Part shown: in pieces, positions 37,101 to 40,100 of the stretch
Numbering within the stretch: the stretch's first letter is position 1
Layout: each line of letters opens with the position of its first letter
Origin: Gemmatimonadales bacterium
GTDB taxonomy: Bacteria > Gemmatimonadota > Gemmatimonadetes > Gemmatimonadales > GWC2-71-9
Assembly (NCBI GenBank): GCA_039794085.1
Contig: JBDIWC010000015.1
Location: forward strand, 1 to 64,000
Length of the DNA: 64,000 nt
Direction of reading: 5' to 3'
Position numbers: made by a program

Positions 37101-40100
37101 GCTTCCGCATCCGTGAGGTCGCAGGCATAGCCGATTCCGTCGGGTGAACGGCCCTCCGGCACGGTGCGGGCGATCCGCACCACGGTGGCCTCCGCCGCCG
37201 CCAGCGCACGAGCCACGGCCGCCCCAATGCCTCGTGAGGCTCCGGTCACCACCGCCACGTAGCCCCGGAGGGAGAGGGGAGACGCCATCACTCGGGGGAC
37301 CGATGCCCGTGCACCAGTCGCAGAAACTCGTCCCGGGTCATCCCATCCTGCCGGAAGACACCCCGGAGCGCGGAGGTGACCGTCCGGGAGTTCTGCTTCT
37401 CCACCCCCCGCATCATCATGCACAGATGCACCGCCTCGATCACGACACCGCACCCCCGGGGATGGAGCACCTCCATGAGGGCATCCGCGATCTGGTCGGT
37501 GAGGCGTTCCTGCACCTGGAGCCGCCGGGCGAACACCTCCACGACGCGGGGAATCTTGCTCAGGCCGATGATGCGGCCGTTGGGCAGATAGGCCACATGG
37601 GCCCGCCCGAAAAACGGGAGGAGATGGTGCTCGCACATGGAGTAGAGTTCGATGTCCCGGACCAGAATCATGTTCTCGTGCGATTCCTCGAACACGCCGG
37701 TCCCCACCTCCTCCTCGACGGACATCCCGTATCCCCGGGTGAGCCACCGCATCGAGCGTTCCACCCGGTCGGGGGTCTGTGCCAGTCCGGCGCGATCGGG
37801 ATCCTCTCCCAGCGCGGTCAGGATGTGCCGAACCTCGGCGGCAAAGGGCGTGGTCCGGCGTTCAGGTTCCGTCATAGTCCACGAAGTTGCGAGGGGTCTC
37901 CCAGAGGCGCACCCGCGCCAACCGGCCAGCGGGAATGTGCGGTGCGAGAGCGTTCCAGCAGAAGAGGGCGATGTGTTCCGCCGAGGGAATGTGGTCGCGG
38001 AACCAGGGGACATCCAGATTCAGATTCCGGTGGTCGAGGACCGAGAGGATCTCGCGCTCGACCAGGGCGTGCAGAATTCCCACATCCAGGACATACCCGG
38101 TGGCCGGGTCGATCTCCCCCTCGACGGTGACCTCGAGTTCATAGTTGTGGCCATGATAGTTCGGATTGTTGCAGGGACCGAAGGTGTCCCGGTTCCACAC
38201 CTCGTCGCGTTGAGGGTTGTGGAGGCGGTGGGCCGCGTTGAAGTGCGCCTTCCGCGTGACCTGGCACCGGGGCATGGGAGTCCTCGCCGCGACGGAGTGT
38301 GAGAAACAGTGAGGCGCCGCCAGTCACGGAACCGGTCGGCGCCCCAGAGGTCGGCTGGTCACGGGGAGTATTATTGAAGCCCGATGATAACGCTTGGCGC
38401 CCTCGCCCCGGCGTTTGCCTTCCCCGAAGGGCATGACAGTAGCCACGGTATGTGGGCCCATCACCAGACCTGTTGGCACAATAATGTGGTTCCCCATGGC
38501 CAACCGACAGAGGTATTATACCGGTCCGCGAGAACCTCGTCAACGGATTCCGGAGTTCCTATGTCCCCCCTGCTGATCGGAGCGGTTCTGGCCCTTGTTC
38601 TCTGGACCGTGTTCACCTTTGTCGTGCCGGCCGGGCTGGGGATCGTCCACGTGCTCCTGGCCGTGGGGGTGGTGCTGTTGATGCGGTGGTGGGTGGGGCG
38701 TAGGGAATAGGCGGTAGGGAAGAGCCCCCTATTCCCCACTCCCCACTCCCCACTCCCTAAGCCGGCACAGCCGGAACCACAGAGGCGCCTCGGAGTCGCG
38801 CGTGGGTTTTCTTCGGCATGGGTTCCGGTCCTGCCCGAGTACCTCTCCCCACCCCCAGAGCCAACCACAAGAAGCACAAAAGGCACAGAAACCTCTCTCG
38901 CCCCTGGTGGGACCCCATGCGCACCGAGGTGTGCCTCTTGTGACTTCTGTGCTTTTTGTGGCCATTCCCCTTGCACGGCGCGGCCGATGCGATCGCCGTG
39001 ACCCGAACGGTCGGCGGGGGGGGGTCGGGCGTCGCCCACAATATTGTTGCCGTCTTGCGTTCAATCTTGTCCGTAAGGGAGTACTCCCTGCGGTTCAGAT
39101 TTCCCAGTTGGACAACAGGATCCCCCTTGCCGGCTCCTGCTCCGGATATCGATCGAGGGTCATCCTCAGGTCGGTCCAATGCACCTGGTACCCTCGATCA
39201 ATCAGGATCCTCCAGGCGGCGGGTCGAGCAGTCTGGCACCGGATCAGGAGTGAGGTGCCTCCGGCCCGGCGCGCCCCGGCCTCGGTGGCCGCCACCGTGG
39301 CGGCGAAGGCGGCCTCGGAGTCCGCGGCCACCTTGAGCATCCGCACCTCCTCCACGCCCCTCCCCTGCGCGAGGGGGACGGAGTGCCAGAGAGCCCATCC
39401 CGCTATCTCCCCCCCGGGCTCGTGGCGAACCACCGACAGCCCGCCCAACCCCAGGGCTCGCGTTTCCCGGATCTCCCCTTCCCAGGACACCCCGGGCAGG
39501 AGGCGATCCGCCAGAGCCAGGCAGGCCGCGTCCTCTGAGCACCCCGCCTCCGGATCCACCCCGAAGCCCTCCACCGGCCCGGGAATGCGGGCAAGGTCTC
39601 CGGCGAGCGTCACGGTGAGGGGGCGCGGAACGAACCCGAGTCGCGCATAGAACCCGATGTTCTCCGCCGTTCGCGGCATGGTTTCCAACCCGATCACCCG
39701 GGCCCCCCCGGCCAGGAGCCGAGCGATCCCCTCCTCCACGATGGTGGTTCCGATACCATGGCCCTGGGCGTCGGGACGAACCGCCAGGGGACCCATCCAC
39801 CCTTCAACCCCGGCCTGATGGACCATATTGAAGGCCAGCAACTGCCGCCGGTCGTCATGCCAGAGGAGAGCTCCCTCTCCGGCGGTGGCGAAGGCATACT
39901 GCCAGACCGGTTCGTTGAGGTATGGCACCCTCAAGGTGGTCAGGCCATCCCGCCGGTAGCGATCGGTGAAGGCCTCGGCAAAGAGCTGGTTGAGCGCCGG
40001 AATATCGTCCGGGCGGGCGACCCGGGGCCCGACCACCACGGGGGGCGCCGTGCTACGCCGCGGCATGATCCACCCCCCCGATGGGTTCATCCCGGGCGGC

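What a model noticed while it worked through the whole genome (the two positions that open the first line are those of the whole stretch)
38760..39083. Heptamer-targeting non-coding mobile element without inverted repeats
About 95 copies of a 190-700 bp non-coding element have fixed, different ends (AGCCGGCAGAGCCGG... and ...GTCCGTAAGGGAC-TA), each a small hairpin, no terminal inverted repeat and mosaic interiors built from REP-like palindromes. It inserts directly after CCTA/CCCA, mostly inside the genome's 7-bp tandem repeats, also head to tail, and so uses heptamer arrays as a gene-free landing pad. It is genus-restricted and recently mobile, and breaks about 45 contig ends.
Evidence so far: 95 left and 94 right ends; 80 of 95 left ends follow CCTA or CCCA, 89 of 94 right ends are followed by TA; 42 of 95 and 42 of 94 flanks are heptamer-periodic against 0.5% of random sites; 0 of 54 complete copies overlap an annotated gene. 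At 9 orthologous loci in sister species G028, 6 lack the element, with the heptamer array left intact (precise at C15:38760), one has one copy instead of two. The end motif is found in G000 and G028 and once weakly in 1 other of 301 family genomes. Interiors share palindromes with RAYT-flanking REPs. Three tandem 323-bp copies on C52. No Rfam match; paper searches found no such element.
(Added by a program. Inside this text positions count along the whole contig: contig position 1 is position 1 of the stretch shown here. "Call 12" and the like, gene names such as g00115 and contig names such as C1 are that model's own, and its searches are not shown. The text may have been shortened before it was handed on; [...] marks where a part breaks off. 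The agent that wrote the report below was given it as the finding of a first reader that could run no searches.)

Follow-up and report, generated by a model that had tools for sequence, protein, structure and literature searches.

The report
Gene-less mobile element targeting heptamer arrays
About 100 copies of a short gene-less DNA element with two different fixed ends sit, always the same way round, at YCCTA sites that mostly lie inside 7-base repeat arrays of one Gemmatimonadales lineage; it likely moves as a single strand cut by a still unidentified HUH-type transposase, much as IS91 elements do.

Summary
The element is real: 98 left and 99 right ends in G000, 54 paired copies of 192-527 bp, no ORF, no significant inverted repeat. 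It occurs in one sister genome and one metagenome contig of a third lineage, not elsewhere in those searched. Empty orthologous sites show insertion without target duplication.

New here: the target is the pentamer YCCTA (pyrimidine at -5 in 92 of 94), not heptamer periodicity as such. CCGCCTA arrays are almost unused, and 11 of 54 copies lie outside arrays. The left (C)TA travels with the element; the right one comes from the target. A 9-copy lineage carries CCA left and CTA right. On the minus strand this gives NTAG^element...TTAG, the IS91 layout, with no replication-strand bias (63:64). The arrays look like gene-less arms of four-helix-bundle cassettes; interiors hold pieces of other repeat families.

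No autonomous copy or partner was found: no IS91, IS110, TnpB or serine recombinase in G000; eight HUH Y1 genes are unlinked candidates. The scan had no look-alike of this element; the array/four-helix-bundle link was noted before. Verdict: new variant of non-autonomous single-strand transposon, mechanism inferred.

The parts
38757..39080 (-). Whole element under the preferred boundaries (left CTA included, right TA excluded); the minus strand is the inferred transferred strand
   Evidence: the boundary is uncertain by one base at each end (38757 or 38758; 39080 or 39081)
38757..38759 (+). Left CTA, carried by the element (reads TAG at the 3' end of the minus strand)
   Evidence: lineage-linked CCA and ATA variants
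38760..38785 (+). Conserved left end (ter-like by inference), 26 bp, with a 5-bp GC-rich stem at 38762-38774
   Evidence: no compensatory changes
38865..38961 (.). Interior palindrome of 9-mer arms (38865-38887 and 38939-38961), a gene-less GxxExxY-type repeat that also occurs outside the element
39030..39081 (+). Conserved right end (ori-like by inference), about 52 bp, AT-rich, with an imperfect dyad at 39037-39049 and a 4-bp stem at 39069-39081; this copy has G instead of the usual C at 39081
39082..39083 (+). Target-derived TA
   Evidence: single TA in empty alleles; all 9 B-type right ends read TA
38725..38756 (+). C-rich arm of the host heptamer array, left of the insertion
   Evidence: empty array in G001:C159
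39084..39090 (+). Last unit of the C-rich arm, right of the insertion
38700..38719 (+). G-rich arm of the same inverted heptamer array (never used as target in this orientation: 0 of 98)
11975..12351 (-). Second, decayed copy in the window (377 bp; both terminal dinucleotides changed)

Best explanation
This is a gene-less mobile element with two different ends that inserts without target duplication at YCCTA and likely moves as a single DNA strand cut and rejoined in trans by an HUH-type transposase that has not been identified. Shown: fixed ends, one orientation on the target, no duplication, recent spread, presence/absence between sister genomes. Strongly indicated: the left (C)TA is inherited from the donor and the right one from the target. 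Inferred: the minus strand is transferred; it is joined behind the target's NTAG (GTAG 44, ATAG 34, TTAG 10 of 95) and ends in its own TTAG (63 of 98; TTGG 16); the long AT-rich right end is the start (ori-like), the short GC-rich stem at the left end the stop (ter-like); the right-TA-left junction seen in tandem copies is the circle junction. Only the ends would be needed, so the interior decays, takes up other repeats and recombines. Arrays are used because their C-rich arms supply most good intergenic targets and may open as single strands.
For: No duplication: empty sites hold one TA, filled sites two (clean non-array pair G001:C62 vs G000:C57; C39/C18 vs L227; C67 vs L188); left and right units match no more than neighbouring units do (15 of 54 vs 19 and 14). 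One-sided inheritance: element position +8 C goes with -2 C in 11 of 11 copies; 9 near-identical B copies all have CCA left and 9 B-type right ends all have TA; 6 of 9 B copies sit in the TA-context typical of CCTA targets, found at 2.1% of free intergenic YCCCA; two 99.7% identical copies at different loci share a rare ATA. Layout matches IS91 as described in PMC13181058 (passages): target tetranucleotide next to oriIS with T at position 2, a related tetranucleotide beside one palindrome at terIS, no duplication, bottom-strand circle. Direct right-TA-left junctions at C6, C52 (x3) and in L351. Recent spread: 17 of 26 lineage-A copies identical over 70 nt; 51 of 66 mapped ends lack the element in G001. 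Eight intact Y1 HUH genes in G000.
Against: No partner: no IS91-type Y2 gene in G000, G001 or G002 although 40 of 201 family genomes have one; no left-right pair over 560 bp; the five Y1 genes checked lie 5 kb or more from any end and have their own REPs. End stems are short, without compensatory changes; the right end folds no better than shuffles. The strongest target constraint besides TAG lies 3' of the inferred nick (GR), which is not described for IS91 in the passages read. The same flank positions also change after insertion at shared loci (C1/L053, C93/L075, C62/L054), so conversion or mutation adds to the linkage; position -5 also shows weak linkage (p=0.011). The -3 boundary rests on one pair.
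Confidence: 0.5

Rival explanations
1. MITE-like passenger of an IS110-family recombinase (like MITEPpu9/ssr9): double-stranded circle, CT or AG core, target set by a bridge RNA supplied in trans.
For: No terminal inverted repeats, repeat-embedded target in one orientation, short core at both ends, no strand bias. The IS621 target quoted in PMC11208160 ends in CCTAC, as many targets here do. PMC12288879 describes a gene-less module moved by IS110 in trans.
Against: No IS110 gene in G000; the one in G001 has unrelated ends and sits in another repeat. Non-array targets share only about 5 bases, fewer than an 11-bp bridge target. A two-strand exchange should put the donor's core variant at either end; it is left in 9 of 9 (inference). 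No target-complementary 7-mer inside any of 54 copies.
Confidence: 0.2
2. Classical PATE of the IS200/IS605 family read on the plus strand: target motif YCCTA 5' of the left end, element-encoded GACTA at the right end, moved by one of the IS200-like TnpA proteins.
For: All left-side constraint (-5 to -1) would be one pentanucleotide; IS200-like TnpA genes are present (L001, L002 over cut-off), and 21 of 54 interiors carry the L002 repeat. Guide/motif covariation is known (PMC10055086) and +8 covaries with -2.
Against: The covariation is A/T to C/C, not complementary; B copies sit in CCTA-type context, not where CCCA is common; no replication-strand bias; stems abut the ends and no 20-25 nt subterminal hairpin with a 5' guide was found; the L002 repeat occurs freely outside the element (38 sites).
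Confidence: 0.13
3. BIME/REPIN-like composite: the two ends are REP-type sites cut at C^T by a RAYT, and copies spread partly by recombination and conversion among arrays rather than by a dedicated transposase.
For: Both ends carry CT at the junction, the RAYT cleavage site (PMC8266576); five RAYT-type genes in G000; interiors change in place at 5 of 7 shared loci.
Against: The ends are not inverted copies of one REP, lack a fixed 5' GTAG, do not flank any RAYT gene checked and hardly occur alone.
Confidence: 0.1
4. Retroposed structured RNA copied by the group II intron or retron reverse transcriptase.
For: G000 has both enzymes; some copies lack the left end.
Against: None found in G001, which has 30 or more copies; no Rfam match; no covariation; no duplication or tail; most copies have both ends exact.
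Confidence: 0.04

Closest known systems
IS91 family (IS91, IS801, IS1294) and its miniature derivatives (PMC13181058, PMC3189936; passages read)
   Same: Two different ends, no inverted repeats, no duplication, target tetranucleotide with T at position 2 beside the long end, related tetranucleotide beside a GC-rich stem at the short end, end-to-end junctions
   Different: No Y2 transposase in the host; target NTAG with a further GR preference; miniature IS801 forms are one-sided truncations, whereas here both ends are kept around replaced interiors; no significant similarity to the ends of 29 family IS91 loci
PATEs, non-autonomous IS200/IS605 elements (PMC10055086, PMC6006769; passages read)
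   Same: Gene-less, asymmetric ends, target motif at one end and element motif at the other, moved in trans
   Different: No subterminal hairpin with 5' guide found, no omega-RNA or TnpB, no replication-strand bias
MITEPpu9/ssr9 and REP-targeting IS110 elements (ISPpu9, ISPpu10, IS621; PMC12288879, PMC11208160; abstract and passages read)
   Same: Gene-less module without terminal inverted repeats, inserted in a repeat in one orientation, short core at both ends
   Different: No IS110 partner; short target; one-sided inheritance of the core; target is a heptamer array, not a REP
BIME/REPIN units with RAYT (PMC6006769 sections 3 and 12; PMC8266576 passages)
   Same: Intergenic, lineage-specific, mosaic, CT at the junctions
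   Different: Ends are not inverted REP copies; no cognate REPtron found
Intergenic heptamer repeats of Xanthomonas and Nostoc (PMC4692102, passages read)
   Same: Inverted pairs of G-rich/C-rich 7-mer arrays between genes
   Different: That is the target here, not the element; the passages read mention no element inserting in them

Membership tests
IS91 family | Y2 HUH transposase in the element or in trans | tested here: not met
   none in G000, G001, G002; found in 40 of 201 family genomes; assemblies are incomplete
IS91 family | Different ends, no terminal inverted repeat, no target duplication | tested here: met
IS91 family | Target tetranucleotide next to one end, related element-encoded tetranucleotide beside a palindrome at the other | tested here: met
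   NTAG vs TTAG/TTGG; boundary uncertain by one base
IS91 family | One-ended transposition products | tested here: inconclusive
   about 8 internal right-only and 3-4 left-only copies, counted by eye; could be deletions
IS91 family | Single-stranded circular intermediate | not testable with these tools
   only assembled contigs available
IS200/IS605 (PATE) | 20-25 nt subterminal hairpins with a 5' guide complementary to the cleavage sites | tested here: not met
   stems of 5 and 4 bp abut the ends; covariation not complementary
IS200/IS605 (PATE) | Orientation bias to the lagging-strand template | tested here: not met
   63:64 overall, 18:19 in strongly skewed regions; skew inferred from third codon positions
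IS200/IS605 (PATE) | TnpA or TnpB gene between the same ends | tested here: not met
IS110/IS1111 | DEDD recombinase with matching ends | tested here: not met
   none in G000; G001 copy unrelated
IS110/IS1111 | Short core at both ends, repeat target, no terminal inverted repeat | tested here: met
IS110/IS1111 | Subterminal inverted repeat (IS1111) or bridge RNA | tested here: inconclusive
   best inverted match p=0.13; no complementary 7-mer in 54 copies; an RNA in trans cannot be excluded
REP/REPIN with RAYT | 5' GT[AG]G at the foot of a hairpin, copies flanking a RAYT gene | tested here: not met
   GTAG at the right end in only 44 of 95 and target-derived; no end near the five Y1 genes checked
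MITE (DDE-derived, IS630-like TA duplication) | Terminal inverted repeats and duplicated TA | tested here: not met
   no repeat; left CA vs right TA in the B lineage
IS607 | Serine recombinase in the genome | tested here: not met

The most novel reading that the evidence does not exclude
A new class of mobile element that parasitises the heptamer arms of four-helix-bundle cassettes, picks its target by pairing of its own first bases (GTCCC on the minus strand, complementary to both array types it uses and not to the type it avoids), and is moved by an enzyme not yet linked to transposition, such as a domesticated Y1 protein or a protein of the array or 9-mer cassettes. The pairing idea is post hoc and untested.
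Probability: 0.15. Interest if true: 0.82.

Novelty: new variant of a known kind. Interest (0 to 1): 0.55.

Why it matters
Gene-less elements without inverted repeats are rarely described outside PATEs and IS110 modules, and none targeting heptamer arrays turned up in 9 paper searches. About 100 natural insertions give a ready map of target rule and strand asymmetry, and short ends (26 and 52 bp) make an in vitro test against eight resident HUH proteins simple. A hit would show what a chromosomal Y1 protein mobilises, which is an open question for most Y1 subclasses. It also shows a nested ecosystem of small repeats and explains 72 of 230 contig breaks. The reach is narrow: one uncultured lineage, no known effect on the host.

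Tried and rejected
Autonomous copy: no left-right pair over 560 bp in G000 or in 1.59 Mb (redundant) of fetched G001 DNA; the long tail of the C62 copy is an IS3-like insertion, named by eye from the ORF at C114. Collection scans: viral 0 and 3 chance hits; metagenomes 0 exact, 29 relaxed of which 1 real; GTDB 10 loci of one genome; plasmids none. A right-end profile over 151 family and 151 order genomes (overlapping sets) gave only two weak partial hits, judged chance. An apparent antisense bias to flanking genes (11 of 13) vanished against control target sites. A 7-bp duplication suggested by one extra unit at C15 and C2 was rejected. An inverted match between the ends is not significant. 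The right end scored up to 15.5 bits against a palindrome beside family IS91 genes; by my estimate that is expected by chance in 29 loci. Resemblances to XerD arms, IHF sites, attC sites and Helitron ends are recalled, not tested, and not used. No promoter consensus. No RNA holder listed. Laying contigs showed the G001-type empty allele at C2 but no same-strain empty allele. Tyrosine recombinases were listed but not examined further; IS630 and other DDE families were not searched. Supplements of the papers were not read; ISfinder and non-open papers on cyanobacterial small repeats were not available and may hold a similar element.

Full report
Observation. The window copy lies at 38760-39081 between a small plus-strand ORF and a convergent minus-strand ORF, inside the C-rich arm of an inverted heptamer array. 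Weight matrices trained on the genome give 98 left and 99 right ends with almost nothing at intermediate scores. 54 pair automatically (192-527 bp); at least four more have an indel in the right end. 72 of 230 contig ends on 59 contigs carry a broken copy, mostly of a lineage of about 620 bp and one of about 410 bp. The longest ATG-to-stop frame inside a copy has a median of 38 codons. Rfam gave no match at gathering score and only sub-threshold hits on the array hairpin. The host order, Gemmatimonadales, comes from a record title of the sister genome; the runs holding the stretch are labelled hot-spring or biofilm metagenomes.

Distribution and mobility. G001 holds 30 left and 25 right ends by pattern, G002 none. 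Among 301 family genomes only G000, G001 and one coding-sequence chance hit matched; a right-end profile added nothing convincing in 151 family and 151 order genomes. One metagenome contig (L351), with flanks about 86% identical to G000, holds a complete copy in an array followed directly by a second left end; the G000 site is empty. Of 66 G000 ends with a mapped orthologous flank in fetched G001 DNA, 51 lack the element and 15 share it (161 flanks were queried, and at least two rows are miscalled by repeats). In lineage A, 17 of 26 copies are identical over the first 70 nt.

Target. Position -4 is C in all 94 non-tandem left ends and -5 is a pyrimidine in 92 of 94, while 891 free intergenic CCTA sites have G there against 2178 with a pyrimidine (p=2e-12, sites not independent). 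Array types with G at -5 or without CTA are almost unused. No left end follows the G-rich arm (0 of 98). Left and right unit types agree in 25 of the 27 copies where both could be typed, so the arrays were there first. 43 of 54 targets are periodic against 41% of free intergenic YCCTA, so arrays are preferred about twofold beyond the pentamer. The arrays also flank four-helix-bundle genes in inverted orientation, as earlier notes of this scan said for other genomes.

Junction. Four empty/filled pairs show one dinucleotide in the empty site and two in the filled one, with no other added base at the three clean pairs. There is no 7-bp duplication. Which copy is whose: element position +8 is C in 11 copies and all 11 have C at -2. 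Nine of them form a near-identical lineage at different loci and array types, and nine right ends of that type all read TA. These copies sit in the context typical of CCTA targets (6 of 9) that is rare for CCCA (2.1%). Two copies that differ by one base share a rare A at -3 at unrelated loci. A nearest-neighbour test shows linkage at -2 (p=0.003) and -3 (p=0.015), weakly at -5 (p=0.011), and none right of the right end. Against this, the same positions also differ between species at shared loci, so later conversion or mutation contributes. The reading is that the left (C)TA belongs to the element and the right one to the target.

Mechanism. One-sided inheritance points to transfer of one strand. 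On the minus strand the element follows NTAG and ends in TTAG or TTGG. PMC13181058 (passages) describes this arrangement for IS91: target tetranucleotide with a constant T at position 2 beside oriIS, a related tetranucleotide beside one palindrome at terIS, no duplication, bottom-strand circles. PMC3189936 (passages) shows miniature IS801 forms moving in trans. The element shows no bias to a replication strand (63:64), unlike the lagging-strand targeting described for IS200/IS605 (PMC6006769, abstract and section 3). The structural support is thin: the left stem has mean z about -1.8, the right end about -0.6, and neither shows compensatory changes. The steps from strand asymmetry to HUH chemistry are inference.

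Interior. Most 30-mers of nine representative interiors occur only inside copies; three modules also occur outside: a 9-mer palindrome (up to 34 sites), the repeat flanking the IS200-like gene L002 (33) and the REP of a RAYT gene on C4 (16). The 9-mer palindrome also lies beside a GxxExxY gene. At 5 of 7 loci shared with G001 the copies differ by indels of 10-115 bp, so part of the mosaic arises in place.

Partner. G000 has eight intact Y1 genes; the Pfam search showed five and local tblastn three more. Five were checked and lie 5 kb or more from any end. Several Y1 types and the GxxExxY genes are shared with G001 and not found in G002, which fits but does not single one out. No Y2, IS110, TnpB or serine recombinase was found in G000. 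Its two reverse transcriptases, a group II intron maturase and a retron-like protein, were not found in G001. The assemblies are 90-95% complete and repeated transposases are often lost.

Comparison and verdict. It works like a non-autonomous IS91-type element but fails membership on the transposase; it fails the hairpin, guide and strand-bias tests for PATEs; the IS110 reading stays open mainly because a partner could be missing from the assembly. Nine paper searches found no such element; this scan has no look-alike by sequence. Papers: PMC6006769 abstract and sections 3 and 12; PMC12288879 abstract and passages; PMC8266576, PMC11208160, PMC10055086, PMC13181058, PMC3189936, PMC4692102 passages only; no supplements. 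New variant of a known kind, interest 0.55.

Noticed in passing
L128, L129, L131, L133, L134 (G000:C34, C18; G001:C241, C151, C40): Four-helix-bundle (PF05635/TIGR02436) genes flanked by heptamer arrays, inverted in most, a different unit for each gene; 378 arrays of 4 or more units in G000
   Followed up: partly
G000:C4:117721-118260, C6:85087-85602, C22:55122-55598: Three RAYT-like genes with their own flanking palindromes that the PF01797 genome search did not list
   Followed up: partly
G000:C15:5000-5290, C6:35600-35870, C29:38800-38980: Unit bounded by an inverted GGCTCTTC...GAAGAGCC pair, found alone and inside the element; resembles the end beside an ISL3-like fragment in L133 (weak hit, E=0.005)
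   Followed up: partly
G000:C19:25315-26000 (L123): Two older, diverged right ends in tandem without a left end
   Followed up: partly
L295-L305 (family genomes): IS91-type genes are followed by a conserved end motif and a long palindrome that looks like an attC site (recalled, not tested)
   Followed up: no
L191 (G000:C24:11926-13794, minus): Retron-like reverse transcriptase fused to a serine protease domain
   Followed up: no
G000:C62 end; C114:1188-2900; C31, C84, C7: Multi-copy IS3-like element (named by eye), one copy inserted inside the element studied here
   Followed up: partly
L081 (G001:C75:14628-16961): Single IS110 element with a long 3' non-coding end, inserted in a palindromic repeat next to a heptamer array
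   Followed up: partly
window 62535-62733: 24-bp and 50-bp tandem arrays built on a palindrome that also flanks the RAYT gene L005
   Followed up: no
G000 whole genome: CTAG is about 23-fold under-represented (546 observed, about 12800 expected) and CCTA about 3.5-fold
   Followed up: no
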